This document shows, one piece after another, positions 121-16,974 of a stretch of 64,000 nucleotides of DNA. This DNA is from a virus: IMG/VR virus record IMGVR_UViG_3300031992_000005, positions 160,001 to 224,000 of that record. One strand, given 5' to 3'. A program made the translations under genes and the position numbers. The stretch's first letter is position 1; each line of letters opens with the position of its first letter. A model generated the notes under the pieces. It saw only the letters and a program-made list of their open reading frames with translations. It had not been told where the DNA came from and ran no database searches.

Positions 121-386
121 GGTAGGCAAAACTGCCTGTTAAGCCCTTTCCACTAATCAGTGGGGTATAGATGTAATCTATGCTAACGATGAAGCCTAAG
201 TGTTCAGTGATGCGACATAAGGTAATATCGTGGGAATGTAATTTAATAAAATTACAAGCCTGTATCGACTATCTGCGGATCGGCAGAGTAAGGCAACTAT
301 TGATACGTTGTTTGAAATGGGCTTTGCTAGATTTATTAAGTCTAGTTAAGATATAGTCAGTGCATATAGAAATATATGATAAAACG
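121..386 (+). mobile_element. group I intron, ORF-less (nrdD intron 1)
   Basis: The 5' exon ends in U. It has gtatcgactat (P7 5' strand) and aagatatagtcagtgc (classic S element GATATAGTC). The P9 hairpin is catata-gaaa-tatatg and the terminal G is at 386. Confidence 0.65.
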
Positions 387-658
387 GGTGTATCGGCATC
401 ACACCTCGATTGGACTCTTGTTCCATACGTTAAGAAATCGTTTTATAAGCATTTCAAGACAGGAGCAGAATTCATTGAAGGAGTAACAATTCCTATTGAG
501 GAATTTAACGATAAAATGTCGCTCGATGATGAGAAGTATAAGTCGAGCGGAAAAGTTTATACATTTGCTATTAAGCAGACAGAGAAAGAACTAAAGCAAG
601 CAGTGGAGGGAATGTATCATAATCTCAATACACTCCAATCACGTAGTGGGAACCAATT
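387..658 (+). CDS. nrdD: NrdD exon b
   Basis: Reads GVSASHLDWTLVPYVKKSF...MYHNLNTLQSRSGNQ(L). ORF 360..662 runs into a stop just past the junction. Confidence 0.75.
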
Positions 659-1830: not shown

Positions 1831-1951
1831 GCCATTTACATCTATCAATTACGGTACATGTACGTCCGTAGAAGGTAGAATGGTGATAAAAGCCTTGCTT
1901 GAAGGTTCGATTAATGGTGTGGGTAAATTTCATAGAACATCCATATTCCCT
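1831..1951 (+). CDS. nrdD: NrdD exon c
   Basis: Reads (L)PFTSINYGTCTSVEGRMVIKALLEGSINGVGKFHRTSIFP, containing the NrdD PF(S/T)SINYG block. It is absent from the ORF track because it is short. Confidence 0.75.
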
Positions 1952-2266
1952 AAAAGTACCATTGGGGAAATAAAACAAGGTGAACTGTCAGAGACAGGTG
2001 TGGAAGTAGAATATAGTAGGAAATGACTATTGAGATACTTTTGCTAACAGGGGAAATCTAAACTTTAAATTAAAGCACGACAATCCTGTGCCAAGTTCTT
2101 TTATAGAAAAGGTCAAACGACTATCCTATGACGTTATTTAACTGAGGAGTAGGTCTATAGCGATATAGTTCCGAAGTGCCTTGTACTACTGAAGAGTAGT
2201 AATGATATAGTCTAATCCGGCTTCCTAGTAAGCGTTAAAGTATTGCGAAAGCAACGGTATATAATG
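1952..2266 (+). mobile_element. group I intron, ORF-less (nrdD intron 3)
   Basis: P1 is UCCCU/GGGGA with U.G at 1951. It has aacgactatcctatgacg ... aatgatatagtctaatcc and terminal G at 2266. The core is nearly the same as polA intron 59638..59932. Confidence 0.7.
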
Positions 2267-2449
2267 TGTGGAATTTTCCAGTATATGAAGGGTGTTAATG
2301 ATAAGCCTGGAACGCCAAATTATGATATGTATAAACTTGCATTAGAGTCAACAGCAAAACGTTTGTATCCAAATTATGCGAACGTTGACTGGAGTGGGAA
2401 TGCTGGATATGATAGAAATGATCCAAAAACTTACTTCAGCACGATGGGT
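2267..2449 (+). CDS. nrdD: NrdD exon d
   Basis: Reads CGIFQYMKGVNDKPGTPNYDMYKLALESTAKRLYPNYANVDW...YFSTMG. The N-terminal MRKQRYIM of ORF 2243..2452 is intron read-through. Confidence 0.75.
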
Positions 2450-2703
2450 TAGTGTAAATGTAGCTCATCTAAAATCTCTTGAACCGTGCCAACGGGTGTC
2501 CAGAAATGGGCTAACTGCCAGGCCCTAAAGTTTTAGGGTGAAGCAGTGCTAAGCTTAGAAGAATTTCTAAGAAAGTGTATCGACTATTGGTGATGAATGT
2601 AGCCAAGTAGGGGAGGAGATAGGCACCTCTTCGAAGCGGGAGACTTCTCAGGAAAATGAGAAGAAGATATAGTCAGTGCCTTTGGTAACAAAGGGTTAAC
2701 ATG
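2450..2703 (+). mobile_element. group I intron, ORF-less (nrdD intron 4)
   Basis: P1 is AUGGGU/GCUCAU with U.G at 2449. It has gtatcgactat ... aagatatagtcagtgc, P9 cctttg-gtaa-caaagg and terminal G at 2703. Confidence 0.7.
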
Positions 2704-3642
2704 TGCAGAACTGCAAACGGTTTTGATATAAATGGTTTAGGTCAGTTAAAGGATGGTAGAGGAAATGTATGTCCAGTTACTATCATTATGCCGACCTTAG
2801 CGATGGAAGCCGACAGAGATGTAGAGAAGTTCATGCGTCTCTTAGGAAGAAAAATTGAAGAAGCAAAAGACATGTTAATTGAGAGATTCAACTGGATTTG
2901 TAGTCAAAGTCCAGAGTCTGCTAGATTTATGTATGAGAATAATACTATGGCGGGTTATGTTCCGTCAGAGGGTATTAGGTCTGCATTAAAGCATGGAACT
3001 CTCAGTTTAGGTCAGCTTGGCTTAGCAGAAACTCTCCAGTTATTGATTGGAACGGATCATACAACAGAGGAGGGTATGAAGTTAGCCAAGAGAATTGAGT
3101 CTCTTTTCAAGAAGAGATGTGCAGAATATAAAGAAAAGTATAAATTAAACTTTGGTGTATACTACACACCAGCCGAAAATCTCTGTTATACTGCATTGAA
3201 GAAATTCAGAACAAAATATGGAGTAATAAAGGATGTAAGTGATAAGGAATTTTTCACTAATTCCATCCATGTTCCTGTATGGAGAGATATGAACCCATTT
3301 GAGAAGATTGATATTGAATCTCAGCTCACGGGTTATTCTTCGGCGGGTTGTATTACTTATGTTGAACTCCCATCCACAGTATTAAATAATATTGAGGCTT
3401 TGGAGACGTTAGTGAATTATGCAATGGATAAGGATATTCCTTATTTTGCAGTTAATGTCCCAAATGATACTTGTATGGAATGTGGTCATACTGGTGAGTT
3501 CGATGTTTGTCCTGAATGTGGTTCAGATAATGTAAGTCAGTTAAAGCGAGTTACTGGCTACTTGAATCTAGATTACAGAACTTCTTTCAATGAAGGAAAG
3601 CAGGATGAAGTACGGTATAGAGTAAAACACATCAAAGGTTAG
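2704..3642 (+). CDS. nrdD: NrdD exon e (C-terminal part, glycyl-radical region)
   Basis: Reads CRTANGFD...GRGNVCPVTIIMPTLA. It has a C-terminal Zn ribbon CMECGHTGEFDVCPECG followed by KRVTGYL (glycyl radical motif RVxGY). Confidence 0.85.
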   Translation, partial: CRTANGFDINGLGQLKDGRGNVCPVTIIMPTLAMEADRDVEKFMRLLGRKIEEAKDMLIERFNWICSQSPESARFMYENNTMAGYVPSEGIRSALKHGTLSLGQLGLAETLQLLIGTDHTTEEGMKLAKRIESLFKKRCAEYKEKYKLNFGVYYTPAENLCYTALKKFRTKYGVIKDVSDKEFFTNSIHVPVWRDMNPFEKIDIESQLTGYSSAGCITYVELPSTVLNNIEALETLVNYAMDKDIPYFAVNVPNDTCMECGHTGEFDVCPECGSDNVSQLKRVTGYLNLDYRTSFNEGKQDEVRYRVKHIKG

Positions 3643-3645: not shown

Positions 3646-4143
3646 ATGAGGTATATTAAAATAACAGGCCCTGATGTAGAAAATGGTCTAGGTTTTAGAA
3701 CTACGTTATGGATTTCTGGGTGTAAGTGCCATTGTGAGGGATGTCATAATCCTGAAACATGGTCCTTCACATTCGGAAAGGAGTTCACTGATGAATCTTA
3801 TCAGGAGCTAAAGGAAAATTTATCCAAGCCTTATATCAAGGGGCTAACTTTATCTGGTGGTAATCCAGTTGATTCCCCGGAAGATTTATTAAGTTTATTG
3901 AAAAGAGTAAGAGAGGATTTTGGTAATTCAAAGGACATTTGGCTTTATTCTGGCTATGTATTTGAAGATCTCCTAAAGGATCCTCTATGTAAAGAAATTT
4001 TAGGCTTAGTTGATATAGTGGTAGATGGTCCATTTATCCTAAGCAAAAGAAATACAGCGCTCCCCTTCAGAGGTTCAGAGAATCAAAGAATTATCTTGGT
4101 TCAAGAATCCCTGAAAGAGGGAAATATAATCCTAAAGCAATAA
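3646..4143 (+). CDS. nrdG: anaerobic ribonucleotide reductase activating protein (radical SAM)
   Basis: Has the CxxxCxxC cluster in GCKCHCEGCHNPETW. It starts 3 nt after the nrdD stop. Confidence 0.85.
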   Translation: MRYIKITGPDVENGLGFRTTLWISGCKCHCEGCHNPETWSFTFGKEFTDESYQELKENLSKPYIKGLTLSGGNPVDSPEDLLSLLKRVREDFGNSKDIWLYSGYVFEDLLKDPLCKEILGLVDIVVDGPFILSKRNTALPFRGSENQRIILVQESLKEGNIILKQ

Positions 4144-4493: not shown

Positions 4494-6134
4494 ATGATTA
4501 TACAGAGTAAGTATACAAAGATATTCCATTCAAAGGATTTAACTCGTCAGAAGTATGATGAGTTAAATGACTTTGCTGTGCTTATTCAAAACCATAAAAA
4601 CACCGTGTCACAATACGTTAATGATAACATTCTTCATTTCTTGGAATACAATAAGTTCCAATTCCTTAAGGTAATGAGAGAACGTTTCAAAGAAGTTATC
4701 CCAAGTTCATTTGATGCACAACTTTATACACAAGTGTTCACTTGTTATCAGAATAAATTCGATGCAATACAACGTAAACTTGTCTTTGAAATCGTTACAT
4801 TTAAAGGATTTGAGTTTTATAAACGTGATACCAAGAAACATAAGGAAGGTGACTTGAAAAAAGTAGTTTTTGATAAGAAACAAACACCATTATCTAACTG
4901 TCTTACTTATCTTGCGAGATACAGTAATGAGAATACAATAGACTACATCAATGACAATATAAGCAAGTGTGACGAGAAGAAACGTGAGTTCTATAACAAC
5001 ATACTAAGATGTTGTGATAAATTCGGATTTGAACGTCTCTACAATCTTGCTTTGTCAAAAAGAAAACGTGTTGTCAAGCATTATTCTGAATATCCTATTG
5101 AGTTCAAGTCATTAACGTTCAGTGGTAGGTGTAGGAAGACAAGGATAATAGACTACAACAGTAGGTTTGGTTCAGTAATCAATTCATTCGTAAGTCTCAG
5201 TGGAATTGGTAGGAAATCATTTGATGTACCAGTTACCTTTAATAAAGGTTGGCATGGAAGTATGAAGGATTACAGAAAGAAAAATAACGATTATGAATAC
5301 ACGCTTACATTTAATGAAAAGAATCACCAAGTGAATATTCATCTGTGTAAAGATGGAGAAAGGTATATACCACAAGTACATGGTGAAACAATAGGCATTG
5401 ATGTTAATTGCAAACATAATTTGTTCAGTTTGTCAGATGAAACCACTTATGACTATGATAGAAAACTTGTTAATGACTTCTGTAAACTATCTCTTGAAAT
5501 AGATAAATTGAAAGAAAAAGATAAAAAATATAAGGTTGGTAAACGTAAACAGCAGAAACTTGATACTCTCAAATCCAAAATGATTAAGTCTGAGCAGCAA
5601 CTTATTGCTAATATGTGTAAGGTATTACATTCACAAGGTGTGGGGCATATTGTAATGGAAGACCTTGATAATGGATTTGGCAAATGCTATGTTAAAGATA
5701 AGGATAATGAGAATATAAATTACAACAGAAAGGTTAAATTCCTTGGCTTGAGTAGTCTTAAACAAGAAGTTGAGCGTATTGCAAAGAAATATGATATTGC
5801 GGTTTCAACAGTTCAAGCAAGTTATACATCGAAGATGTGTCCTATGTGTGGATGTATTGAGGACGAAAACAGACCAAACCAAGAAACATTTGAATGTGTT
5901 GAATGTGGACATAAAGATAATGCAGACTTTAATGCTGCAAAGAACATAAGGAACAGAGTGCTTGTAATCGTGTTACGAGATTTGCTCTTAAAACAAAAGG
6001 ATAATGGTGCTTTTGAGCCTAAGAAACTTAAACGTGAGAAGGTAAAGGAGGTATTGTTATCGTTTCGAAGAAGCCTACAAAATGTAGGAAGTGAATGTAC
6101 AGAAAGTAGTGTGACTACTTTTGACTATGTTTAA
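4494..6134 (+). CDS. tnpB: TnpB-like (IS200/IS605 OrfB / Cas12-ancestor) RNA-guided endonuclease, no tnpA nearby
   Basis: RuvC-I is IGIDVN, RuvC-II is HIVMEDL, the Zn ribbon is CPMCG...CVECGH and RuvC-III is NADFNAAKNI. All catalytic positions are present. Confidence 0.85.
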   Translation: MIIQSKYTKIFHSKDLTRQKYDELNDFAVLIQNHKNTVSQYVNDNILHFLEYNKFQFLKVMRERFKEVIPSSFDAQLYTQVFTCYQNKFDAIQRKLVFEIVTFKGFEFYKRDTKKHKEGDLKKVVFDKKQTPLSNCLTYLARYSNENTIDYINDNISKCDEKKREFYNNILRCCDKFGFERLYNLALSKRKRVVKHYSEYPIEFKSLTFSGRCRKTRIIDYNSRFGSVINSFVSLSGIGRKSFDVPVTFNKGWHGSMKDYRKKNNDYEYTLTFNEKNHQVNIHLCKDGERYIPQVHGETIGIDVNCKHNLFSLSDETTYDYDRKLVNDFCKLSLEIDKLKEKDKKYKVGKRKQQKLDTLKSKMIKSEQQLIANMCKVLHSQGVGHIVMEDLDNGFGKCYVKDKDNENINYNRKVKFLGLSSLKQEVERIAKKYDIAVSTVQASYTSKMCPMCGCIEDENRPNQETFECVECGHKDNADFNAAKNIRNRVLVIVLRDLLLKQKDNGAFEPKKLKREKVKEVLLSFRRSLQNVGSECTESSVTTFDYV

Positions 6135-6164
6135 TTCTTCGGAATGGAGTAAATTAATAGTGAG

Positions 6165-6419
6165 ATGGAATTATACAAAGAAGATTTATTTGGTATAGGT
6201 ATTCCTGATAAAGATTCAGAAGATAATACCTTTTTTGCACTTGAGCATGGTTCTGGCACTTATGTAGCCAAAATTATTCTTAGAGAAGTTTTAAGGCTTT
6301 GGAATTATGAAATCAAGGAGGAGAAGGACATTGTTATGGATTCTCAATTCATGTTAGGTTGTTATACTAACATGCCTTGGTCTGTATTTAAAGATTTTCG
6401 CAAAAATTTTGTGAAATAA
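6165..6419 (+). CDS. hypothetical protein
   Basis: From the ORF track. It starts 30 nt after tnpB and could overlap the TnpB guide-RNA region. No motif recognised. Confidence 0.4.
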   Translation: MELYKEDLFGIGIPDKDSEDNTFFALEHGSGTYVAKIILREVLRLWNYEIKEEKDIVMDSQFMLGCYTNMPWSVFKDFRKNFVK

Positions 6420-6489
6420 TAGTAGGTTGTTGTTAATAATAGATTAATGAACCTATAAAATTACATTTAAGATGAAGTAAAGAATCGTT

Positions 6490-6870
6490 ATGACGGAGAA
6501 GCAGATAGATCTTTTAATAGATCTAAGAAATCAATGTATAGGAAGAGGTGTAATGTATTTAACCATTCCTGAGCAGAAGCCGGAGTCTATTAGTAGTAGT
6601 ACTAGTATTATTGCTTCTACTCCTAAGAATCCGTTCACAAAGGAAGAGGTAGACCTTCTTATTCAGATGTTATTGAAGACATTTGAATTTAAGGGAATTA
6701 TGAAAAAGGGTGATGAGCATTTTCTATGGTCGAGTATCCTAGGAGATCATGCAACAAATCCTTTTTACATATTCGAGTCTCCTGGTTATCGCATTGAACT
6801 GACAACAGTAGATAAGCGCTTTATAGCTGAATTAAGGGCAACTGTCGAGGAAACATCTTCCAAATCGTAA
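6490..6870 (+). CDS. hypothetical protein
   Basis: From the ORF track, tiling with same-strand neighbours. No motif recognised. Confidence 0.5.
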   Translation: MTEKQIDLLIDLRNQCIGRGVMYLTIPEQKPESISSSTSIIASTPKNPFTKEEVDLLIQMLLKTFEFKGIMKKGDEHFLWSSILGDHATNPFYIFESPGYRIELTTVDKRFIAELRATVEETSSKS

Positions 6871-6972
6871 AAACTCTGTTATGAGAACTTAAAACTCTTA
6901 CTTAAGATTAAACAAAAAGAGATTCAGGTCTCTGTTGAGTTAGATTATAACAATTAATTTTTTATATATTAT

Positions 6973-8103
6973 ATGTTTGATGATGAAGATTTTCTTCTAG
7001 ATGATGAAGATTCAGATTCGGGTTATATAGTAACCCCAGCGGATGAAGATGCTGAGGATGACAATGACGATGAGAATGGGTCGGAAGTTGAAGAAGAAGC
7101 CAAACCCACTAGAAAAAAGAAAGCAACTGAGGATGATTATGATAATCGAATGACTCATGATGAGTTAGCCCTTAGTAGTGCTTACGATGATATTCGGGCT
7201 GCTAGTAAGAATCCGGATAAGATTTCTGTGGGTGGTAAAATGTTTGATCAAAACATTATAGATGCGGTAAGAACTATTATTGGTTGTTCACCAGCTAATA
7301 CTTCTACTCACTTTATTGAGAAGATAACACTTGAATTCTTCCAATCTCAGGGTCATAATCGTATTCCATCCAGCGTATATACTCCAGATCAGCCATTACG
7401 TGGAAGTTCAATTGGTGAGGAATTTGGTGGTCAGGATGATAATGGTTTCAATGAGCAATATGCTAAAGAAGCCAGAGAGCAGATTGCGAGGTTTATAAAA
7501 TACTTGGCGGATAGAGATTTGAGTAAAGATTCTACTGTAAGTAGAAAAAGGAAGTTAAGACAGCTCCCTGCTTTTATCATTTTCCTATTCAGTTCTGGTA
7601 TGTACGACCTTCTCCTGAACTGTGAGACATTACCACCGGAGTATAAAACTCAGGTGAATAATGCTTTCAAGAGAATTCAGAAACAGAAATATGATATTGT
7701 TGAGGCATTGGCTAAGCGTTATGAAGAGCTAGGTAGGCAGGCTATAGCAGATAGAGTGAGAAAAATGGGTCTCACTTGGTTTGATAAGGAGCCAGCTGAA
7801 TTAACGGGGTTAAAGACTTTCAAAGATCTTGACCTAACCCATGAGGATATCATGGTATATCGTGAATTTAGACCTAGATATGTAAACGCTAGTAAAAATA
7901 TAACTCAGGAATTAATATCAGATATGATTGAAGTTGTCTTAGTCCCTGGCAAGATTTATGAAAAGCTAAAGGATAAGACTAGATTTGATGCTATCTCTGA
8001 TGTTAAGCAAGTCTACAAAGATTGGTCCGCTAATAATGCAGTGGATTCTGAGCTTGCCTCAAAAATTATCTGGAAAGATCCTAAATTAGTAAATAAACAA
8101 TAA
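6973..8103 (+). CDS. hypothetical protein with highly acidic N-terminus, immediately upstream of RNAP beta-prime gene
   Basis: A 376-aa ORF with an N-terminal D/E-rich run. Its stop is 2 nt before the beta-prime start. Confidence 0.6.
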   Translation: MFDDEDFLLDDEDSDSGYIVTPADEDAEDDNDDENGSEVEEEAKPTRKKKATEDDYDNRMTHDELALSSAYDDIRAASKNPDKISVGGKMFDQNIIDAVRTIIGCSPANTSTHFIEKITLEFFQSQGHNRIPSSVYTPDQPLRGSSIGEEFGGQDDNGFNEQYAKEAREQIARFIKYLADRDLSKDSTVSRKRKLRQLPAFIIFLFSSGMYDLLLNCETLPPEYKTQVNNAFKRIQKQKYDIVEALAKRYEELGRQAIADRVRKMGLTWFDKEPAELTGLKTFKDLDLTHEDIMVYREFRPRYVNASKNITQELISDMIEVVLVPGKIYEKLKDKTRFDAISDVKQVYKDWSANNAVDSELASKIIWKDPKLVNKQ

Positions 8104-8105: not shown

Positions 8106-9244
8106 ATGGCAGATGTAAATCTAGAATTATTAACAGACGAAGATATTATTGACTATACTAGATCAGATGGTCGTGATAGAATTGTTAATAATCATAGAGA
8201 CTTAAACTTAAGGTTTGATTACATAAAACCAGAAGGTGGTGGAGTGTATGATACTGAAATTTTTGGTTCCCCATATGAAGATAGATGTATTTGTGGTTAT
8301 ATTAGACAACCCTCGGCAGAGCCTTGTCCTAACTGCGGAGCACGTGTATATTCTATGGAAGAAGGCTTGAGACGTTTTGCCAGAGTTGAATTACCATTTT
8401 ATTATCTTAATGAACTTAGATTTAATATCTTTAAGGAATTTTTCGATAAGATATTTGAAGGGAGTACCATTAAGCTTGAATTTTTTGGTGATGACTTAAG
8501 GAGAAACGGTTATGCTGAAGGACGAAGTAAGAAAAAGCTTGGTATTAAAGTTTTTGATACTTGCCAGTTTGAGTATAATAAAGCTAAGAAGGAACTAACT
8601 ATTTCAGAGTTTATTACCGACGAATCCAAATGTTCCTACGAAGGTCTCATGAAGATTATTGAGGAAAATTTTCCTGAGAGTCTCATGGACTATAAACGGC
8701 TGATCAATAGATATTATCTTATACTACCAGCTATGATGAGAAGATTTAGTCTTGTCAAGGAAGGTACATCTACGAAGATGAATACTAACAAGCTGAGTAT
8801 ATGGTATTCTATTATAATTCGTCTCTGTTGTGTAGAAGATGATAAGAAAAATCCATCCAACTATAAAACAGTGATGGACATGTTTAAGACTCCTGGTGAG
8901 AGAGTAAGATATACTGCTCTCCTAAGAGCTCTTATTAATGTAGGTAAGAAACAGTCAACGGAGCTTCTAAATACTTCAAAGAAAAACTTATCACGAAAGG
9001 TTTATTCAGTTCGTGTAAAGAATTCTGCCAGAAGCCCTATTGTTCCAAGTACTACCTTGAAAGTAGATGAACTAGGTGTTCCTAGATATCTTGCTTATGA
9101 AATGTGTAGAGAGGGATTCATAAAATATCTTTGTGAAGAACTAAACTTTACTCCAGAACAAGCAAGAAAATCTACAAAAGATGAATCTGATAATCTTGAA
9201 CTGCAAAGACTCTTTAAGGAGTATGCAGAGAAAAGATACGTGCT
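8106..9244 (+). CDS. multisubunit RNA polymerase beta-prime-like subunit, exon 1
   Basis: N-terminal Zn motif CICGY...CPNCG. It ends ...KRYVL, and YVL|VTRQPVLH is restored after splicing (cf. LNRAPTLH). Confidence 0.8.
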
Positions 9245-9958
9245 AGTGTACTAATTGGTACGTAATTTTGAGAATTGCTGAAACCTGAATAAATCCGGGA
9301 ACCAGCAGCTAGTTTTGGGTTTCTACAAAATAATGCCTATGATAGAAGAAGAAAAGCCCTGGTCTAGGAGTGAACATATGAAATACCTACACAGTCAAGG
9401 AAGATATCTTGGCACAAGTAAGATAGGTCAATGGAATTCTAGTCCAGAGAAACATCTTAGGATGATATCAATTCGTGAAAAGAATCTCTTAGATAAATCG
9501 TCTCATGGTTATGGGTCGGAATATCATATGAGGTTAGCAAATAGAACCCTATTACATAATAAATTTCAAGGAGAGGAAGGTTTTCTTTATTTCTTAGATT
9601 TTCCCGCTAGTGTTAAAGTGGGATTTTCAAAAGATTGGGAAAGAAGGATTAACCAACAATTGCCAAAGCAGATATTAGGTGGGAAAGTTATAGCGATTAT
9701 ATCAGGTCCCACTAATGACCTGGCTGATCTGGAATTTGATACTTTTGTCAAGTTCCAGAAATATACTAAATTAGATTCCACCGGAACTAGGTATACTGAA
9801 TTCTTGGAGAAAAGAAAAAAATCAGAAATCTATAAGTTCTTGAAAGAGTCTGTTAAAAATAATAAGAACCTTAAATTTGAAATTCAAAACTAGTTCAACG
9901 ACTATGTGCAAAAGAAAAAGATATAGTCTGTCCTAGGTCGAAAGACTTAGGGGTAACG
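9245..9958 (+). mobile_element. group I intron with endonuclease-like ORF (beta-prime intron 1)
   Basis: P1 is GUGCU/GGUAC with U.G at 9244. It has aagatatagtctgtcc, P9 cctaggtc-gaaa-gacttagg and terminal G at 9958. Confidence 0.7.
9315..9893 (+). CDS. intron-encoded protein, T5orf172/GIY-YIG-superfamily-like putative homing endonuclease
   Basis: GFLYFLDF...VKVGFSKDWERRI ... YTEFL resembles the T5orf172 pattern (GxVYIL...KIGxT...R...EWF). It lies inside the intron. Confidence 0.5.
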   Translation: MGFYKIMPMIEEEKPWSRSEHMKYLHSQGRYLGTSKIGQWNSSPEKHLRMISIREKNLLDKSSHGYGSEYHMRLANRTLLHNKFQGEEGFLYFLDFPASVKVGFSKDWERRINQQLPKQILGGKVIAIISGPTNDLADLEFDTFVKFQKYTKLDSTGTRYTEFLEKRKKSEIYKFLKESVKNNKNLKFEIQN

Positions 9959-10978
9959 AGTAACACGACAGCCAGTACTTCATGAATATAATATTTACTG
10001 TCAGAAGATTAGGATAGTTGATCAAGATGCAGTAGCTTATCCAATTGAGCTCTGTGGACCACTTAACGCTGACTTTGATGGTGATACTGTATCTATGATC
10101 CTGGTTCCTGATGAAGTAGCTGAGGATACCTATAAAAAGATGAGTCCTAGGTATAACAAGATTTATAAGAAAAATCTTGAAAATGTCTTTGTATTCAATC
10201 ATGAAACTCTTAATGGTCTAGCCAATGCTACTGAATATACTCCTGACGATCCTAATGATCTGAAGGAACCTAAGTATTATTACACTGATTATACAGAACT
10301 CCTAAAAGATGTTGAGGTTAATCATAAGATTAATTATGGTACACCTATTGTCTTTACAGGAAAAATAGGGGATGTAGATTATCAGAGTAAGATTACTACA
10401 TACGGACGTCTTAGAATATCTAAGATAATTGATGCAGACCTTGATGAGATCCGAGTAGAAGGTAAGCCTATTATGGAAAATCCGTATGAAAGACTAAACG
10501 CGAAGACAGCAGGTAAACTGATGTCTTATCTCTATGGTTTCGATAACTGGGTAGAGAAGGCAAATGAATTACAAAAATTTGCCCTAAAGGTTGTAACTAA
10601 GACAGGTGTAGTAACATTTGACTATTCAACCTTGTATGCTGATACTGATAATGAAACTTATAGAGATATTAGAAAAATTGCTGATTCGGAAGATCTTACA
10701 GATAAGCAGAAACTTACCTTAATTACAGAGAGATATGGAAAATATCTCAAAGGCCTTGAGAGAGATTTTAGTTCCGACCTGAAGAAAGAACTAGATAGAT
10801 CTGCTAGGGTAAAGTTAAATTCCATTATTGCTATTAATGCACCGTCATTGATTATCAATGGTCCGGAAGAAAAGGTAGTAGTAACTCATGGAAATCTTTT
10901 GGAAGGTTTTAGTGAAAAGGAATACTTGTATCATGCTATCGAAAATAGATCCCTCCTGACGATCAAGCAGAGTGGCGT
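9959..10978 (+). CDS. RNAP beta-prime-like subunit, exon 2 (catalytic loop)
   Basis: Reads VTRQPVLHEYNIYCQKIRIVDQDAVAYPIELCGPLNADFDGDTVSM. The absolutely conserved NADFDGD is at about 10065..10085. Confidence 0.8.
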
Positions 10979-11344
10979 CAATAGTTTTTATCGGTGCGTC
11001 ACTATAAAAACCACAACTATTGCTGGAAAATAATAAAATAAATTATAATCAGCAACTTATTATGAAAGAAAAAGTATTAAATTGGGTAGAACTACTAACT
11101 GCAGTGGCAGCTGTTATTGGTGGTATTGGAGAGATCCTCAAGCAATTTGGAATTGCCTCTGACAAAGTGAAGGAGACAATTAAAGCTAAGAGGGAAGAGG
11201 CTTTTATGAATAATAAGCCCAACGACTATTGTTGTGGCACTCAGGAAGAACAGAGTGAGAAACCTGAGTGATGGTATAGTCTATCCTGGATTGAAAGATT
11301 CAGGGCGGCGTGGGTTGAAAACTAACTCACGTCTGGCCGATTGG
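10979..11344 (+). mobile_element. group I intron (beta-prime intron 2)
   Basis: P1 is GCGU/GUGC with U.G at 10978. It has cgactat ... ggtatagtctatcc and P9 cctggatt-gaaa-gattcagg. The 3' site was chosen so that ...KQSGV|GYLTRQ is restored, so the boundary is +/-3 nt. Confidence 0.6.
11020..11271 (+). CDS. possible small intron-internal ORF (one hydrophobic segment)
   Basis: An 83-aa ORF inside the 366-nt intron, overlapping the P7 5' strand. It may be fortuitous. Confidence 0.25.
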   Translation: MLENNKINYNQQLIMKEKVLNWVELLTAVAAVIGGIGEILKQFGIASDKVKETIKAKREEAFMNNKPNDYCCGTQEEQSEKPE

Positions 11345-12545
11345 TGGTTATTTAACTAGACAGATCTCATTCTTGTTGAATAATTACACTTATAGAGAAA
11401 AGGGAGAAGATAAGGAAAATCCTGGTCTTCTTATTCCTAGATACGTGGCTACTGGTAGAACTTCTCCTACAGGAAAGGTATATCCAGCAGTTACAAAGAA
11501 AAATGAAGATGAACTAGTACCTGTTAGATCTATTGTAACTAAATGTAAAGGAAACTTATATGAAGTTACTCCAGATCTCTTGGGCAAAGCTTTCTTAAAG
11601 GCTAGTTTTCCTGATGGATCTGCAATCGGTCCTAGTGTTGGTACTAGTTTTACAGAAAGTACTACTCAAGGTATCCTTGCTCTTAAACATGGTGGTCATG
11701 AAAGAAAGCAAGCAGTTGAAGGAAACTTATATGCACCTAAAGATTGCGAGCTTATTGAAGATGGTAAGTTCTTGAAACTAAAAGTAAGAGGTAACAAAGA
11801 ATTAGTCTATCCTAAACCTAGTAATTGGGTTGGACTTGGTAAAACGGAGTTCAAGGAAGGTGAATTGGTCGGTACTGCTTACAATACTTCTTCGCCAATT
11901 ATCATGCTTAATTCTGTCTTAAAGCTTATGCAGGCTAAGGGCGGAACTGGTAGTAAATACTTTGAAAAGGATAACGTTATTATATCAGACTGTTATGCTT
12001 ATGAAGAAGGTGTAATAAACTACGTTGAGGATAAGCATGGAAGAATGAATGTAACTATTGGAAATAGATACTATGCTTATAATCCAGAGGCTATGTATTA
12101 TTATCCTTCAGGAACTACTATTAAGAAGTTTCAGAGATTTTGTTCTGGTGTAGTTAATATGAGACAGGTTTCTTCTGACTTAGGTGGTGATCTTAGCTCA
12201 ATCTTTAATATTTTCCGAAGACAATATTATACATTGGTTAAGGATGATTTTATTGAAAATGGAGTTGGACCACATGATATGCCAGAGGAAATTGTAGAGA
12301 TTGTATTTGCTGGACTTACTAATATTGTTAGAACAGATAAGGGCGATGTAACTGAAGTAGAGTTTCAGGGAACTCAGACGTCTATTACAAACAATAAGAG
12401 TAAATCATTCTTTACTGCTCTGTCATTCGGTTGGTCAGAAAGTGCAGTCGATAAGGCTATTAGAGGAGAACTTAATCTTGAAAAGGATACCATGACTGAA
12501 ACAGTACTTGGTTTGTTATTAAATGATAATTTAGATAAAGTTTAG
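11345..12545 (+). CDS. RNAP beta-prime-like subunit, exon 3
   Basis: Begins (V)GYLTRQISFLL (cf. SGYLTRRLVDV) and stays open to the stop at 12545. Confidence 0.75.
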
Positions 12546-12783: not shown

Positions 12784-13149
12784 ATGAATAAAAATAATGA
12801 TAGTTATTATTACAAAATAGTTTTGGCGTATGAAATACCATACAACGTCTTAGATAGTAACGATCCTGATAAGATCTTAGCTAGGGAGAATCTATATCAA
12901 GCGATAACTAAGATTATTCCCACTAGTAAGTATGATAAATTTTCAGTTAAACTTATGCTTTTTCAATTAAAGGATACGTTTAACTACGTGGTGATGTTTG
13001 ACTCTTTCTTTAGGTCTACAGAAGGTTTACCTATGAGTGAGTACACTGAGGCTAGTAAGATTAAACAGGCAGCTAAGGATGAACTAGAGAAATACTTTAA
13101 TTCACTCGACTGCGATTATAAACCACTGAATATAATTACATTATTATAA
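12784..13149 (+). CDS. hypothetical protein (between RNAP subunit genes)
   Basis: From the ORF track. Its stop overlaps the beta start (ATAATG). Confidence 0.55.
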   Translation: MNKNNDSYYYKIVLAYEIPYNVLDSNDPDKILARENLYQAITKIIPTSKYDKFSVKLMLFQLKDTFNYVVMFDSFFRSTEGLPMSEYTEASKIKQAAKDELEKYFNSLDCDYKPLNIITLL

Positions 13150-16100
13150 TGAGTAATTTTAATCAATTTTTCAAAAATCAAGGGGCAAAGACGATGGTAG
13201 AGCGTTTCTTTACCGGAATAGATGAATATACGCCAAATAAGAAACTAACAAACCTAACTTGGCATCTAGCCGAAGAAGATAAACGCCCAGCTTCATATTT
13301 CATAGAAAATGGATTAACTGCAACTCATAAGGTAATCCTGGAGTATACAATTAACTATGATGATGAAATTCGTACATCTGAGTTTGAAGTCCCTAGAGAA
13401 ATAGACGGTGTATTTATTATAGAAGGAGCTTATCGTATTGCTACTAATAACCTAGGAAAAGACTATGATTGTAGAATCAATATGTCAGGTACTGGTAGAC
13501 AATACATTAACTTTGACTATGGTAGAGAATATGACATCAAGACTGGTATTCTTAAAATAAAGAGGGTAAATCCTGACTTAGGTTTACCTGAAAAAGTAAG
13601 AGAATATAAGTTAGATGAAATAGATGAACTCAGTGGTATTGAAAAAGAAGTTCTAAAACTTTCTGAAAGACAGAGAAAGAAGTTTCAGGTAAAGCTTGAT
13701 ATTGATTATTCCCCGGATTATATTTCAAAGAAGCTTATCGAGGATTGTATTGCTTATGGCGATGATAGAATTCGAGATCTTATTATTGATAAGAAGATTG
13801 ATTCTGTTCCCGTTGGTTTTATGAAGTATATCTTCAATGGAGGTAATAATAAGAACTTCTATGGTACAAAATCCCAACTAAGAAACTATTGGAGTAAGCA
13901 AGGTAAGTTACAGGACCAGATTAATGTACTTACAAATCTTTGTGCTAGATACTGGAAAGGTAGTAGTTCAAAGAAGAAAGGAGAGGATAATGATGTTCAA
14001 GTTTCTCCTGGTGTAAATGCCATGAACCTGGAAAGTATCACGAATAAAATCTATATTCCTGAAACTGTAGCTTATAATACTACCTTTAGTGACTTGATTT
14101 GTGTTGGTGCTACACCAAATAATGGTAACATCGGTAAGCAGAATGCCTTGACTGTATCTACCCATATTACAGATGAGGATGTTCTCTTTGACTGTTATAC
14201 TACCAAGTTTCAAAAGATCACTATCCCATACTTGGATTATCTTAATCATAAGGTATGTGCTAGTGAGTACGTTGACTATGATACTAATACCGTTAAACCC
14301 GATAAGGATGGTAAGGTAGAAGTTAAGCATAGAATGCGTAGAAAGATGGTACCAGTGGAGGAAATTGAGTTAATTGACCTTCACCCAGACTATCGTTTAT
14401 CAGAAGAAGTAAGACGTATACCGTTTGTGAATTTTACTGACTCTGTTCGTATCTGTATGGGTAGTGGTATGTTAAAGCAAGCTATTCCACTTGTTAATGC
14501 AGAAAGACCTCTAGTAGATACAGGTAACTATGAAGAGCTTCATACAAACGTCTTGAATGAACGTTTTAAAGAAGAGTCTGGTGTAGTTAAGGATGTAAAT
14601 GAAGAGGGAGTATTAATAGAACTTCCTAATAAGGATGAAATTCTTATTCCAAGAAAAACTGCTATTCAGAGTATAAATGATGTTGACGTCTTTACTGAGC
14701 CTAAAGTTAAGAAAGGCCAAAAGGTAAAGAAGGGTGATGTTATTACTGGAGCAGTTGGCTTGGAAGAAGATACCTATAAAATGGGTATTAATGCTCTCGT
14801 CTTATTCCATGCAATGTTTGGTGATGTCAATGAAGATGCCTTAGTAGTTAGTGAGTCTTTCTCAAAGAAAATGCACTCTTACTCTGTTATCGACCTGATA
14901 TATGAAGTAAGAACTAATGAGGCAATCAAATGGATAGCTCCAATAGGTCAACAGGTAAAGTCTAAAGATCCCGTCATGATGACCTATAAGGCTGTTAAAC
15001 TTGACTTAGTCAATAAGGCCTTGAATGATAAATTAGGTGGTATCTTTGGAGATCAAAAACTAGATCTCTCTGAATATACTATTGAAAGTAACTTGGAAGT
15101 TCCTAATGACATTGATGAAGCTTATGTTAGTGATGTTAGAATTCAGGAAAATTTACACCCTAGAGTTCCTGGTGGTACTAAGAGACCTGACTTAACTTAT
15201 GCTCATACATCAGAGGAGACTATCAAAGATTATAATTTTGATAGAAAAATTATCTATGATAGATATCCAGAATATATTGCAGCAGATAGACTTAAGGATA
15301 TATCATTAGCAGATAAGGATTATAAGATTGTTTATGTAGTTCGTATTAGACTTATTAAGAGAACAAATCTTATGATCGGATCTAAGGTTACCAACCGTTA
15401 TGGTGGTAAGGGTGTCATTTCTAAGATCTTGCCAGATGATAAGATGCCAATCATGGTAGAATCTGCAACTGGTAATAAGAAAGTTGTGGATATTGTCATG
15501 AACCCTTATAGTACAATTAACCGAAAGATTCCTTCTGTTAATATGGAGAGTCTCTTAGGTTCAATTGCGCATAGAATTCATGACATAGTAGATGAGAGGA
15601 AAAATGATAAGAAAAAACAGGAAACTATCATGCCTCTTGTTCAGAAGTATTATCCTGGTCGATTTGATGGAATGACATTAGAGAAGTTCTTGAAGTTACA
15701 TGAAAATAGTAAACTTGAGGACGTATATTACTTCAATGTAGGTAGTTACTCTAGACTTACTCCAAAGCAGATAGATGAATGGGCAAAGGAATTAGGTGTT
15801 ACACCTCAATCAAAGATTCTCATGCCTAGTGATACTATCGCTGACCTTGATGAGCTTAAAGCGAACTTAAGTGAGGAAGAATATAATACCGCCGTTAAGA
15901 ACTTGACAGGTAGATACGTAGAAGTTGAAAAGCCACTTAGTGTTGGTTATATGACTATGGAAGAACTATATCAAATTCCAACTTATAGTGATAAGGTAAC
16001 TTCTAGTATGTTCGGTGTTGATGTTAATGAGTGGGTAGATTCTCCTATTATGGGTAGAGGTGGTTATAGAAAAACTGGTCAGATTATCGGTGAAATGGAG

Positions 16101-16310
16101 CTCATGGCATACTTGTCAAGAAATGCCAGAGATTTCATTAAGCTCTCTAGAGGAGATACCTCAAGAGAAGATAATCAGCTCTTCTTGAATAACCTCTTAG
16201 GTCTTGGTCTAACTGTTACAGACAGTAAGGGTTATAATCAGGGCGGTTCATCTCTCAAGAGTAGACTTGGTGAGATGAAGACTAAATTCAGACTAAAGAA
16301 TCAGAAATAA
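13149..16310 (+). CDS. multisubunit RNA polymerase beta-like subunit
   Basis: TNRYGGKGVISKILP (cf. SRHGNKGVISKI), VDIVMNPYSTINRKIPS (cf. LNPLGVPSRMN) and GQIIGEMELMAYLS (cf. GEMEVWALEAYG). Uninterrupted, 1053 aa. Confidence 0.85.
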   Translation: MSNFNQFFKNQGAKTMVERFFTGIDEYTPNKKLTNLTWHLAEEDKRPASYFIENGLTATHKVILEYTINYDDEIRTSEFEVPREIDGVFIIEGAYRIATNNLGKDYDCRINMSGTGRQYINFDYGREYDIKTGILKIKRVNPDLGLPEKVREYKLDEIDELSGIEKEVLKLSERQRKKFQVKLDIDYSPDYISKKLIEDCIAYGDDRIRDLIIDKKIDSVPVGFMKYIFNGGNNKNFYGTKSQLRNYWSKQGKLQDQINVLTNLCARYWKGSSSKKKGEDNDVQVSPGVNAMNLESITNKIYIPETVAYNTTFSDLICVGATPNNGNIGKQNALTVSTHITDEDVLFDCYTTKFQKITIPYLDYLNHKVCASEYVDYDTNTVKPDKDGKVEVKHRMRRKMVPVEEIELIDLHPDYRLSEEVRRIPFVNFTDSVRICMGSGMLKQAIPLVNAERPLVDTGNYEELHTNVLNERFKEESGVVKDVNEEGVLIELPNKDEILIPRKTAIQSINDVDVFTEPKVKKGQKVKKGDVITGAVGLEEDTYKMGINALVLFHAMFGDVNEDALVVSESFSKKMHSYSVIDLIYEVRTNEAIKWIAPIGQQVKSKDPVMMTYKAVKLDLVNKALNDKLGGIFGDQKLDLSEYTIESNLEVPNDIDEAYVSDVRIQENLHPRVPGGTKRPDLTYAHTSEETIKDYNFDRKIIYDRYPEYIAADRLKDISLADKDYKIVYVVRIRLIKRTNLMIGSKVTNRYGGKGVISKILPDDKMPIMVESATGNKKVVDIVMNPYSTINRKIPSVNMESLLGSIAHRIHDIVDERKNDKKKQETIMPLVQKYYPGRFDGMTLEKFLKLHENSKLEDVYYFNVGSYSRLTPKQIDEWAKELGVTPQSKILMPSDTIADLDELKANLSEEEYNTAVKNLTGRYVEVEKPLSVGYMTMEELYQIPTYSDKVTSSMFGVDVNEWVDSPIMGRGGYRKTGQIIGEMELMAYLSRNARDFIKLSRGDTSREDNQLFLNNLLGLGLTVTDSKGYNQGGSSLKSRLGEMKTKFRLKNQK

Positions 16311-16311: not shown

Positions 16312-16974
16312 ATGGAAGATACTCAGAACATTAGTAGCAGCTGTATTATGTTAGCTGCTAATCTCAGTACTCCCGTGTCTATGAAGGCTATTTTTGATTC
16401 GGGAGATCTGAAGGATACAGGAATTGAATTTGATTCACATATAACATTACTCTATGCCAGGAAGTTTATTGATAAGAGAGAAATATTACCTCTTCTTAGA
16501 ACCTTTGATTTTGGAGATATTCCAGACTTAGGTGGAAGAAATATACAGGACTTCTTGGAATATCAGAAGAATCCACTAGACTTTTCATGTCCAGTTTATG
16601 ATATTTTTGAATTGAGTAGTTTTGAAAATGATAGTGGGTATGTTATATTGAAGTTGAAAAATAATAATCTCTGGTATGATGTATGTTCCCAGATCAATAA
16701 GGTATTTGGGAAATATTATAATGTAACCAGTGATTTTAGTACTTACACACCTCATCTAACTTTAGCAGAATTAGAGCCAGGATTAACTGAAAAATATCTT
16801 GACAATGAGACTCTAAAGTTAGTTCTAAGGGATAGTATTGTTCATTTTGAAGACTTAGTTATCTCCTATAGTAGGGAAGATTCTAAGGAGTATGATCAAT
16901 ATAATATCACAACTAATCGTGCTGTTGATAGATTCTTTAGAGAAAGGGAGCTTAGGAGCGTCGAAATTGAGTAA
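16312..16974 (+). CDS. 2H phosphoesterase superfamily protein (LigT / 2',5'-RNA ligase / cyclic phosphodiesterase-like)
   Basis: Two H-x-T-x motifs about 100 aa apart, FDSHITLLYA and YTPHLTLAEL. Confidence 0.65.
   Translation: MEDTQNISSSCIMLAANLSTPVSMKAIFDSGDLKDTGIEFDSHITLLYARKFIDKREILPLLRTFDFGDIPDLGGRNIQDFLEYQKNPLDFSCPVYDIFELSSFENDSGYVILKLKNNNLWYDVCSQINKVFGKYYNVTSDFSTYTPHLTLAELEPGLTEKYLDNETLKLVLRDSIVHFEDLVISYSREDSKEYDQYNITTNRAVDRFFRERELRSVEIE

What the first reader, a model, noticed from the sequence alone, without database searches (positions are those of the whole stretch)
8106..12545. Phage multisubunit-RNAP beta-prime gene interrupted by two group I introns flanking the NADFDGD exon
The beta-prime-like ORF is broken at 9244 and 10978. 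Both breaks show U.G P1 pairings, GATATAGTC-type S elements, GAAA-capped P9 hairpins and a terminal G. Removal restores YVL|VTRQPVLH (cf. LNRAPTLH) and KQSGV|GYLTRQ (cf. SGYLTRR). The first intron carries a T5orf172/GIY-YIG-like ORF. The adjacent beta-like gene (13149-16310) is intact. Jumbo-phage RNAPs are known for having beta and beta-prime split into separate genes. Here the gene is instead interrupted at the RNA level, so production of the phage transcription machinery would depend on ribozyme splicing.
Basis: partly seen in the sequence, partly recalled or inferred. Interest (0 to 1): 0.65.

Follow-up and report, generated by a model that had tools for sequence, protein, structure and literature searches.

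The report
Two introns split phage RNA polymerase gene
A large phage's gene for the catalytic subunit of its own RNA polymerase is interrupted by two self-splicing-type (group I) introns either side of the active-site segment, a real but already known kind of arrangement, and one splice site needed correcting by 9 bases.

Summary
The beta-prime gene (8106-12545, + strand) is broken twice, and both intervening sequences have the architecture of group I introns.

Joining 9244|9959 aligns without a gap to about 37 uninterrupted homologs. The product is 1122 aa.

Covariation in relatives supports P1, the P3-P7 pseudoknot, P4-P6, P8 and P9. A covariance model built only from relatives ranks these two sites first and second in the 64-kb window (E 5e-9 and 5e-6). 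Rfam's own group I model misses both.

Exon 2 has no start codon upstream of NADFDGD, so it cannot be a stand-alone gene.

Intron 1 carries a 186-aa ORF linked to the GIY-YIG clan (T5orf172/MUG113) only through an intermediate homolog, and it lacks P2 and P8. Intron 2 carries a small conserved ORF.

Precedents exist: the PhiPA3 vRNAP intron, intron-rich Jug gut phages and crAss-like phages. This is a new member of a known kind. Splicing itself is inferred, not shown.

The parts
8106..9244 (+). beta-prime exon 1 (379 codons plus 2 nt). It ends in U9244, which pairs with G9257 in P1.
   Evidence: ORF and translation. Pfam RNA_pol_Rpb1_2 profile positions 3-39. Gapless alignment to full-length homologs.
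9245..9958 (+). Group I intron 1 (714 nt). Helices: P1 9238-9244/9257-9263; P3 9266-9270/9909-9913; P4 9276-9280/9303-9307; P5 9284-9287/9296-9299; P6 9309-9316/9886-9893 (encloses the ORF); P7 9900-9905/9923-9928; no P2 and no P8; P9 9932-9939/9944-9951 with a GAAA loop; terminal G9958.
   Evidence: Coordinates. Covariation test on 12 homologous introns: 80% of cells paired against 35-46% when slid. Out-of-sample model R1 hit at 9886-9955, 40.5 bits, E 4.8e-6, with P8 shown deleted. Homologous introns at the same site in L001, L002, L003-L007 and L089-L113.
9333..9893 (+). Intron-1 ORF, 186 aa, looped out of P6. Its stop codon lies inside the P6 3' strand. It is a probable GIY-YIG-clan (T5orf172/MUG113-like) protein and a presumed homing endonuclease.
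   Evidence: About 297 close homologs with no precomputed Pfam domain. The window ORF matches T5orf172 only at E 0.066. Distant family member P0262 passes the Pfam T5orf172 and MUG113 cut-offs. No PDB fold or sequence match. The same intron in L003/L006 carries an HNH-type ORF instead.
9959..10978 (+). beta-prime exon 2 (340 codons). It contains VTRQPVLH and NADFDGD (10065-10085) and ends in U10978.
   Evidence: Pfam RNA_pol_Rpb1_2 profile positions 104-155. The first in-frame ATG/GTG/TTG is codon 45, downstream of NADFDGD at residues 35-41. Alignment to PDB beta-prime chains.
10979..11335 (+). Group I intron 2 (357 nt). Helices: P1 10971-10978/10996-11003; P10 10990-10995/11336-11341; P3 11011-11017/11231-11237; P4 11021-11025/11050-11054; P5 11030-11034/11042-11046; P6 11056-11063/11210-11217; P7 11224-11229/11276-11281; P8 11238-11245/11263-11270; P9 11285-11291/11298-11304; a further hairpin 11309-11316/11324-11331; terminal G11335.
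Evidence: Coordinates. Covariation test on 11 introns: 82.7% paired against 31-46% when slid, 31 pairs with changes on both sides, 0/500 shuffles reach the observed values. Model R1 hit at 11210-11308, 55.4 bits, E 5.3e-9.
11062..11271 (+). Small ORF (69 aa) in the P6 loop of intron 2. Its conserved N-terminal part of about 28 aa is hydrophobic (..LLTAVAAVIGGIGEILKQF..). In this window it reads on through P7, P3' and P8.
   Evidence: Present at the same place in all 11 site-2 introns. pN/pS is 0.63 in frame against 0.86 and 1.24 out of frame, and pN<pS in 53/55 pairs. It is called as a gene of 39-63 aa in relatives. No family match.
11336..12545 (+). beta-prime exon 3 (403 codons including the shared first codon). 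It begins G|CCG ATT GGT GGT TAT, which reads (V)PIGGYLTRQ.
   Evidence: The first in-frame start codon is 12 codons into the exon.
13149..16310 (+). Uninterrupted beta-like subunit gene (1053 aa), the partner of beta-prime.
   Evidence: Pfam RNA_pol_Rpb2_6 E 1e-15. PHROG RNA polymerase beta subunit E 6e-30. No intron-model hit in it.

Best explanation
The region 8106-12545 is one gene for a phage-encoded multisubunit-RNAP beta-prime subunit of 1122 aa. It is interrupted by two mobile group I introns, 9245-9958 and 10979-11335.

How it most likely works:
1. The gene is transcribed as one precursor RNA.
2. Each intron folds into the group I core: P1 formed with the 5' exon, the P3-P7 pseudoknot, the P4-P6 domain and P9.
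3. An external guanosine attacks after U9244 or U10978, which is the U.G pair in P1.
4. The freed 5' exon then attacks after the terminal G (G9958 or G11335). For intron 2 this step is positioned by P10.
5. The exons are ligated, so ribosomes can make a continuous beta-prime containing VTRQPVLH, NADFDGD and the bridge-helix motif GYLTRQ.

Both introns sit in the most conserved, active-centre-coding parts of the gene. Each carries an ORF looped out of P6. The 186-aa intron-1 protein is probably a GIY-YIG-clan homing endonuclease that spreads the intron to intron-less alleles in co-infecting relatives.

Shown here: the gene structure, the RNA architecture with covariation, the presence/absence polymorphism, and the correct junctions.
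Inferred: actual splicing, whether it is autocatalytic, and nuclease activity of the ORF.
For: - Spliced ORF. It is continuous, 1122 aa. About 37 uninterrupted homologs of 1113-1158 aa cover 100% of it. Junction 1 is gapless, and junction 2 is gapless once moved to 11335|11336.
- Identity. The family profile matches bacterial RNAP beta-prime structures at E about 1e-36, with the alignment running through both junctions.
- Not separate genes. Exon 2 has no in-frame start codon before codon 45, beyond NADFDGD. Exon 3 has none for 12 codons.
- Intron 2 structure. 82.7% of cells pair against 31-46% in slid controls. 31 pairs have compensatory changes against 15-21. 0/500 shuffles reach the observed values. 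The exon-guide pair in P1 is C-G in 5 sequences and G-C in 5. All 8 pairs of P8 are compensatory.
- P10. It pairs 6/6 at 11336 and covaries in relatives.
- Intron 1 structure. 80% paired against 35-46%, and 17 pairs changed on both sides against 2-10.
- Out-of-sample test. Model R1, built without the window, gives its two best hits in the window at exactly these sites, E 5.3e-9 and 4.8e-6.
- Polymorphism. The same sites are occupied in some relatives and empty in others. L082-L088 lack intron 1, and P0001-P0037 lack both.
- ORF swapping. The same site-1 intron carries an HNH-type ORF in L003/L006.
- Context. The window holds one Intron_gpI hit above Rfam's gathering score (58984-59262 on the minus strand, 63 bits) and two significant sub-gathering hits in nrdD.
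- Precedent. Splicing of similar introns in huge gut phages was confirmed by metatranscriptomics for 37 of 76 predicted introns (PMC12880540).
Against: - No RNA data or splicing assay is available for this sequence.
- Rfam RF00028 does not detect either intron, even at E<=10.
- Intron 1 has no P2 and no P8. Only GAAAAA lies between P3' and P7', and P8 is normally part of the catalytic core. Autonomous self-splicing of intron 1 is therefore less certain.
- P10 for intron 1 is weak, 4/5 pairs.
- In this window the small intron-2 ORF runs on through P7, P3' and P8, and the exon-2 frame runs 18 codons into intron 2. Translation could compete with RNA folding.
- The window's intron-1 ORF is not itself recognisable as a nuclease.
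Confidence: 0.86

Rival explanations
1. The introns are real and are removed at the RNA level. However, intron 1, with its P2- and P8-less core of about 150 nt, is not autocatalytic. It needs a protein helper, either intron-encoded or supplied by the phage or host, to fold or splice.
For: - P8 is cleanly deleted in the window and in L001, while the L002-type copy of the same intron keeps a covarying P8.
- Spacers of 12-16 nt between the R and S elements, too short for P8, recur in many introns of relatives.
- The intron ORFs are conserved under purifying selection.
- From general knowledge, some group I introns depend on maturases or other protein cofactors.
Against: - All other core helices are kept and covary.
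- ORF-less P8-less introns exist in relatives, for example the 161-nt intron at L005 9354-9514. An intron-encoded helper is therefore not always present in cis.
- No maturase-like domain was detected.
Confidence: 0.25
2. The gene is truly split. Three separate polypeptides (8106-9254, about 10095-11033 and 11373-12545) assemble into the polymerase, as in jumbo-phage split beta-prime or cyanobacterial rpoC1/rpoC2. The intervening DNA is just spacer or selfish ORFs.
For: - Gene callers report separate ORFs, and relatives are annotated with proteins of about 720 aa.
- Split RNAP subunits are known in jumbo phages (general knowledge).
Against: - The breaks fall inside conserved motifs, within ..VL|VNRQPTLH and within SGV|P..GYLTRQ.
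- Exon 2 has no start codon upstream of NADFDGD.
- The spacers carry group I structure whose guide sequences covary with the flanking exons.
- Close relatives have the same gene uninterrupted.
Confidence: 0.04
3. The introns are decayed and no longer splice. The beta-prime gene in this genome is a pseudogene, or the contig is a defective variant.
For: - Rfam's model fails to detect the introns.
- Intron 1 lacks P8.
- The small ORF has lost its usual stop codon and reads into the core.
Against: - All three exons are intact, in frame and about 60-75% identical to homologs.
- The helices are complementary in the window itself, 8/8, 7/7 and so on.
- A near-identical intron ORF (97% identity) is found on independent contigs.
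- The P8-less form is shared with L001, whose exons have diverged. This argues that it has been kept by selection.
Confidence: 0.05
4. The insertions are inteins or are bypassed during translation, not removed from the RNA.
For: Inteins do occur in related huge and crAss-like phages (PMC12880540, PMC7886860).
Against: - Exon 1's frame meets a stop codon 8 nt into the insertion (9252-9254).
- The exons are in different frames relative to the insertions.
- Multiple stop codons lie upstream of exons 2 and 3 in their frames.
- No intein domains were found.
Confidence: 0.01

Closest known systems
PhiPA3 gp210 intron in the virion RNA polymerase gene gp211/209 (Birkholz et al., Science 2024, PMC11620839)
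   Same: - A jumbo-phage multisubunit-RNAP gene is interrupted by a putative group I intron that carries an endonuclease gene.
- The insertion is at highly conserved catalytic-site codons.
- An intron-less homolog exists in a related phage.
   Different: - PhiPA3 has one intron, with an HNH nickase whose activity and competitive role were shown experimentally.
- Here there are two introns, in an unsplit single-gene beta-prime of an unrelated, uncultured lineage.
- The ORFs here are a T5orf172-like protein and a small peptide, and nothing has been tested.
Group I introns of Jug (jumbo gut) phages (Sci Adv 2026, PMC12880540)
   Same: - Phage genomes of several hundred kb (360-402 kb for Jug; related contigs here 304-384 kb) are riddled with short group I introns and stand-alone endonuclease genes that split essential genes.
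- The window also has fragmented nrdD and DNA polymerase genes, as reported for Jug phages.
- Splicing was verified there by metatranscriptomes for 37 of 76 introns.
   Different: - That paper's main text names terL, nrdD and DNA polymerase as split. It uses RpoC only as a marker and does not describe it as interrupted.
- I could not establish whether this window belongs to the Jug clade.
T4 td / nrdB / nrdD(sunY) introns and other phage group I introns (from general knowledge)
   Same: - Compact phage group I introns in essential nucleotide-metabolism or replication genes.
- The endonuclease ORF is looped out of a peripheral helix, and a GIY-YIG enzyme (I-TevI) acts as the homing endonuclease.
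- The introns are present or absent among relatives.
   Different: - The T4 introns have P2, P7.1/7.2 and P8 and are detected by standard models.
- The present introns are shorter in the core, and intron 1 lacks P2 and P8.
- The host gene is the phage's own RNA polymerase.
Introns and inteins in crAss-like phage genes (Yutin et al. 2021, PMC7886860)
   Same: [quoted passage not shown]
   Different: A different phage order with a different, very divergent RNAP. I did not compare the details.
Gene-level split beta-prime (jumbo-phage RNAPs; cyanobacterial rpoC1/rpoC2; from general knowledge)
   Same: The beta-prime coding capacity is spread over several ORFs.
   Different: Those are separate genes, each with its own start codon, and the pieces assemble as proteins. 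Here the pieces lack start codons and are joined at the RNA level.

Membership tests
Group I intron | The 5' exon ends in U, which pairs with G in P1 formed with an internal guide sequence. | tested here: met
   Intron 1: ACGUGCU/GGUACGU, U9244.G9257. Intron 2: AGUGGCGU/GCGUCACU, U10978.G10996. In relatives the U.G pair is kept in 12/12 and 10/11 sequences, and a P1 exon-guide pair switches between C-G (5) and G-C (5).
Group I intron | The last intron nucleotide is G (omega G). | tested here: met
   G9958 and G11335. 10 of the 11 site-2 introns and all site-1 introns examined end in G at the protein-defined junction. L083 may be an exception.
Group I intron | A conserved core of P3-P7 pseudoknot, P4-P6 domain and P7 with R and S elements, supported by covariation. 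| tested here: met
   intron 2; intron 1. P3, P5, P6 and P7 show compensatory changes, and P4 is invariant. The slid and shuffled controls score far lower.
Group I intron | A P8 hairpin between P3' and P7'. | tested here: not met
   Intron 2 has P8 (8 bp, all 8 pairs compensatory across relatives). Intron 1 has only GAAAAA between P3' and P7' and so has no P8. The L002-type copy of the same intron does have a covarying P8.
Group I intron | P10 pairing of the 3' exon with the guide sequence. | tested here: met
   Intron 2: GCCGAU/AUCGGU, 6/6 pairs, covarying in 7 relatives. Intron 1: only 4/5 pairs, which is inconclusive.
Group I intron | A match to the curated covariance model (Rfam RF00028) at its gathering score. 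| tested here: not met
   No hit at 9245-9958 or 10979-11335, even at E<=10. The model also misses about 10 cores in L005. A lineage-specific model built without the window hits both sites, E 5e-9 and 5e-6.
Group I intron | Guanosine-dependent self-splicing with exon ligation. | not testable with these tools
   This needs RNA-seq junction reads or an in vitro splicing assay.
GIY-YIG clan endonuclease (T5orf172 / MUG113 branch), for the intron-1 ORF | A match to Pfam T5orf172, MUG113 or GIY-YIG above the curated cut-off. | tested here: inconclusive
   Window ORF: T5orf172 E 0.066, 14 bits against a cut-off of 20. Distant family member P0262 (E 2.5e-13 to the family profile) passes T5orf172 (22.6) and MUG113 (23.4). 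6 of the 9 other distant members scanned give sub-threshold T5orf172 hits in the same region.
GIY-YIG clan endonuclease (T5orf172 / MUG113 branch), for the intron-1 ORF | The GIY-YIG alpha/beta fold. | tested here: inconclusive
   AF2 model with pLDDT 73.6 and a confident beta-beta-alpha-beta-alpha C-terminal domain. Foldseek against the PDB gives a best E of 0.19 and TM of 0.2. The PDB sequence profile search found nothing.
GIY-YIG clan endonuclease (T5orf172 / MUG113 branch), for the intron-1 ORF | Site-specific cleavage of the intron-less allele. | not testable with these tools
   This needs a nuclease assay on an intron-less beta-prime target, for example the L082-type sequence.
Multisubunit RNAP beta-prime, for the spliced product | The NADFDGD catalytic loop, the NRxPxLH motif and the bridge-helix GYLTR motif, in order, with profile similarity to solved beta-prime structures. 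| tested here: met
   (E about 1e-36 to Thermus and E. coli beta-prime chains).

The most novel reading that the evidence does not exclude
This phage lineage carries a distinct, stripped-down class of group I ribozymes. Their cores are about 150-160 nt and lack P2 and P8. Examples are window intron 1 without its ORF and the 161-nt ORF-less intron at L005 9354-9514. These elements still splice, alone or with a small intron-encoded helper such as the conserved peptide of about 40-70 aa in intron 2. They have multiplied to at least 8-10 copies within a single beta-prime gene in relatives, leaving micro-exons of 10-25 codons. To my knowledge, which is unverified, they would be smaller than any characterised natural self-splicing group I intron. 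They are also invisible to the standard Rfam model.
Probability: 0.3. Interest if true: 0.65.

Novelty: new member of a known kind. Interest (0 to 1): 0.42.

Why it matters
- **Dependence on splicing.** If the introns splice as inferred, the phage cannot make the catalytic subunit of its own RNA polymerase without two RNA-splicing events. A mobile element thus sits in the middle of the phage's transcription machinery.
- **Possible competition between phages.** In PhiPA3 such an intron endonuclease acts as a weapon against co-infecting relatives. The presence/absence pattern seen here across many gut or human-associated jumbo-phage contigs suggests similar competition.
- **Annotation.** Gene callers and Rfam both miss these introns, so beta-prime is split into 2-8 'hypothetical' ORFs in public data.
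- **Ribozyme biology.** The very compact P8-less cores and the conserved small intron ORF are the parts that could teach something new about minimal ribozymes.

Tried and rejected
- **Rfam.** The gathering and E<=10 searches of the region found no group I hit at either site. A relaxed search of L005 also found none.
- **Megablast against GenBank phages.** No match. tblastn found only distant phage beta-prime genes of 21-31% identity.
- **First covariation run.** It used plain parentheses for the P3/P7 pseudoknot and mis-paired them. I discarded it and repeated the test correctly. One script also picked the wrong CAAAA for P3', fixed.
- **MAFFT register.** P5 and P9 are out of register in A2, and P5, P9 and part of P1 in A3. 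I left them as they were, so the pair counts are conservative.
- **Intron-1 ORF.** The PDB profile, PHROGs and Foldseek against the PDB all found nothing.
- **Small ORF.** The word-indexed search found only near-identical copies, and PHROGs found nothing.
- **Candidate R...S match at 51184-51279 (+).** It lies inside a minus-strand ORF, model R1 gives no hit there, and Rfam's gathering-level scan of the window lists nothing there. I treated it as chance.
- **Literature.** Searches for 'smallest group I intron' and 'lacks P8' found nothing. The supplements of the Jug-phage paper are not held, so I could not check whether RpoC introns are listed there.
- **Inteins and translational bypass.** Rejected from the reading frames.

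Full report
**1. The observation**

- ORF listing shows three same-strand ORFs that together resemble one RNAP beta-prime: 8106-9254, 10095-11033 (in frame from 9960) and 11373-12545.
- Pfam's RNA_pol_Rpb1_2 profile is split across the first break. Profile positions 3-39 fall in the first ORF and 104-155 in the second.
- The sequence in both gaps contains R-like (CAACGACTAT) and S-like (GATATAGTC / GGTATAGTC) elements and GAAA-capped hairpins.
- The composite R...S pattern is expected 0.00 times by chance in this window. The S element occurs 7 times against 1.22 expected.
- Rfam's Intron_gpI model does not report either gap, even at E<=10. It does hit a third intron elsewhere in the window, at 58984-59262 on the minus strand, 63 bits.

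**2. Uninterrupted homologs define the junctions**

- A search with the spliced product found about 37 full-length homologs of 1113-1158 aa, 52-61% identical, covering 100% of the query. A second group of about 700-750 aa equals exon 1 plus exon 2 and always ends right after ..IKQSGV.
- In the alignment, junction 1 (..YVL|VTRQPVLH..) is gapless.
Splicing at 11335|11336, which is also after a G, gives SGVPIGGYLTRQ.
- This version has one fewer gap and a higher score against P0001, 1363 against 1355 bits. The product is 1122 aa.
- The family profile matches solved bacterial beta-prime structures at E about 1e-36. The alignment passes through both junctions, the NADFDGD motif and the bridge-helix motif.

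**3. The pieces cannot be separate genes**

- Exon 2 has no in-frame ATG, GTG or TTG before codon 45, while NADFDGD is at residues 35-41 of the exon.
- Exon 3's first possible start is 12 codons in.
- The exon frames are closed by stop codons just upstream, and exon 1's frame stops 8 nt into the first gap.
- This excludes inteins and makes a protein-level split very unlikely.

**4. Relatives**

- tblastn mapping on related contigs (L001-L007, L082) shows a mixed pattern. Site 2 is occupied in all of them. Site 1 is occupied in L001-L007 but empty in L082. Some relatives have many more breaks.
- Six further contigs (L083-L088) have exon 1 and exon 2 fused, and an insertion of about 340-400 nt at site 2 with a small called gene inside.
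- Collection scans with the conserved 5' core of intron 1 retrieved 26 more loci, mostly on contigs of 326-350 kb.
- Both sites therefore show the presence/absence polymorphism expected of mobile introns.

**5. Intron 2 (10979-11335)**

- Eleven homologous insertions were aligned and the window's helices were mapped onto the alignment.
- My first pair count nested the P3/P7 pseudoknot wrongly, so I repeated it.
- The correct test gives 82.7% of cells paired against 31-46% when the 3' partners are slid. It gives 31 pairs with changes on both sides against 15-21, and a covariation score of 0.334 against at most 0.121. No shuffle out of 500 reaches any of the observed measures.
- The exon-guide pair in P1 is C-G in five sequences and G-C in five. 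All eight pairs of P8 show compensatory change. P7 changes from GACUAU/AUAGUC to GACUGU/ACAGUC.
- P10 was tested separately. The first six bases of the 3' exon pair 6/6 with the six bases just 5' of the P1 guide strand in the window (GCCGAU/AUCGGU).
- P10 also covaries in relatives: ACCUCU/AGAGGU, ACCCCU/AGGGGU, ACCCCA/UGGGGU and CCCAAU/GUUGGG.
- All elements have window coordinates.

**6. Intron 1 (9245-9958)**

- The site-1 insertions of the window, L001, L002 and its variants, and L003-L007 share the same ends and core.
- I trimmed the ORF at motif anchors, not at the pairing, and aligned 12 distinct sequences.
- The structure gives 80% paired cells against 35-46% when slid, 17 pairs changed on both sides against 2-10, and a covariation score of 0.190 against at most 0.107.
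- The window's copy has no P2 and no P8. Only GAAAAA separates P3' from P7'.
- The L002-type copy keeps a P8 that covaries even among close variants: AGAGUA/UACUCU, AGGAUA/UAUCCU and AAGGUA/UACCUU.

**7. Out-of-sample test**

- I built a covariance model of the 3' half (P6', P7, P3', P8, P7', P9) from ten relatives' site-2 introns, excluding the window.
- I searched all 64 kb with filters off. The two best hits are 11210-11308 (55.4 bits, E 5.3e-9) and 9886-9955 (40.5 bits, E 4.8e-6).
- Weaker hits follow in the fragmented DNA polymerase gene.
- The alignment of the second hit shows the P8 deletion directly.

**8. The intron ORFs**

*The 186-aa ORF in P6 of intron 1*
- It has about 297 close homologs of 65-97% identity without any precomputed Pfam domain.
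- Pfam gives T5orf172 only at E 0.066. PHROGs, a PDB sequence profile and Foldseek on an AlphaFold model (pLDDT 73.6) give nothing.
- An exhaustive HMMER search finds only 27 clusters among 1.84 billion representatives.
- One distant member, P0262 (E 2.5e-13), passes Pfam's own cut-offs for T5orf172 and MUG113. Six others give sub-threshold T5orf172 hits in the equivalent region, and one gives GIY-YIG at E 0.025.
- In L003/L006 the same intron carries an HNH-type ORF instead, which is typical cassette swapping.

*The small ORF in P6 of intron 2*
- It is present at the same place in all 11 introns.
- pN/pS is 0.63 in frame against 0.86 and 1.24 out of frame, and pN<pS in 53/55 pairs.
- In L003 it follows a separate 361-aa PD-(D/E)xK-like ORF.
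- Its function is unknown.

**9. Context and comparison with what is known**

- The window also holds a fragmented nrdD with two sub-gathering Rfam group I hits and a LAGLIDADG-type ORF.
- It holds a family-A DNA polymerase gene in at least four pieces, with three intron cores.
- This matches the description of Jug gut phages: 2513 group I introns in 136 of 139 genomes, nrdD, terL and DNA polymerase split, and splicing confirmed for 37 of 76 introns by metatranscriptomics (PMC12880540).
- A putative group I intron with an HNH homing endonuclease interrupts a PhiPA3 virion-RNAP gene at conserved aspartates, and it mediates competition with PhiKZ (PMC11620839).
- crAss-like phages also have multiply interrupted essential genes (PMC7886860).
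- The arrangement is therefore a new member of a known kind.
- I found no statement that this beta-prime is intron-bearing, and I could not decide whether the window belongs to the Jug clade.

**10. Verdict**

- Confidence that these are spliced group I introns is about 0.86.
- The main uncertainty is the absence of RNA or biochemical data, and the missing P8 in intron 1.
- The most novel reading left open is that this lineage carries unusually minimal P2/P8-less group I ribozymes, with a conserved small intron-encoded protein.

Noticed in passing
window 360-3642 (+), with nrdG at 3646-4143: The anaerobic ribonucleotide reductase gene nrdD is in at least four pieces (360-662, 2243-2452, 2701-3642 and others). 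A LAGLIDADG-type ORF sits at 807-1637. Two sub-gathering Rfam group I hits lie at 1942-2235 (39.8 bits) and 2355-2695 (35.2 bits).
   Followed up: partly
window 58546-63961 (-): A family-A DNA polymerase gene is fragmented into at least four ORFs. It contains three R...S intron cores (59006-59112, 59668-59776, 60709-60793), of which 58984-59262 passes Rfam's gathering score. A 389-aa repeat-rich endonuclease-like ORF sits at 60814-61983 (..VEYHGCQHF..).
   Followed up: partly
L005 4387-11379 (also L003, L004, L006, L007): In more distant relatives the same beta-prime gene carries at least 8-10 R...S intron cores between residues about 380 and 920. This leaves micro-exons of only 10-25 codons around the NADFDGD region. 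Rfam detects none of these cores, even at E<=1.
   Followed up: partly
L005 9354-9514: A 161-nt ORF-less intron-like element with P1, P3, P4-P6, P7 and P9 but no P2 or P8. Its removal restores ..LHAIENRSLQSIKVSGV.. without a gap. If it self-splices it would be exceptionally small. R-to-S spacers of 12-16 nt, too short for P8, recur in L001, L003, L005, L006 and L007.
   Followed up: partly
window 11062-11271; L001, L002, L082-L088, L005 at the equivalent place: A conserved small ORF (31-69 aa) with a hydrophobic N-terminal helix (..TIKILTAIGAI..GIGEILRQF..) sits in the P6 loop of every site-2 intron. It has a coding-type substitution pattern. It has no match in PHROGs, and the homology search found only near-identical copies. 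In L003 it sits downstream of a separate PD-(D/E)xK-like ORF.
   Followed up: partly
L003 and L006, site-1 intron (about 6127-7820): The same intron that carries the T5orf172-like ORF in the window carries instead an HNH-motif ORF with repeated GKxLSEEHKxKIS units. This means endonuclease cassettes are exchanged within one intron backbone.
   Followed up: no
L083 5020-5030: Going by the protein alignment and P10 (UCCUCU/AGAGGA), the site-2 intron of this relative seems to end in A, not the usual terminal G. Alternatively the product has one extra residue.
   Followed up: no
window 20386-20458, 29542-29627, 39735-39810 (+); 51921-51994, 53212-53285, 54376-54458 (-): Six tRNA genes are scattered through the window, consistent with a large phage genome that carries its own tRNA set.
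   Followed up: no
window 16312-16974 (+): The ORF directly after the beta gene gives a weak PHROG match to RNA ligase (E 1e-3).
   Followed up: no
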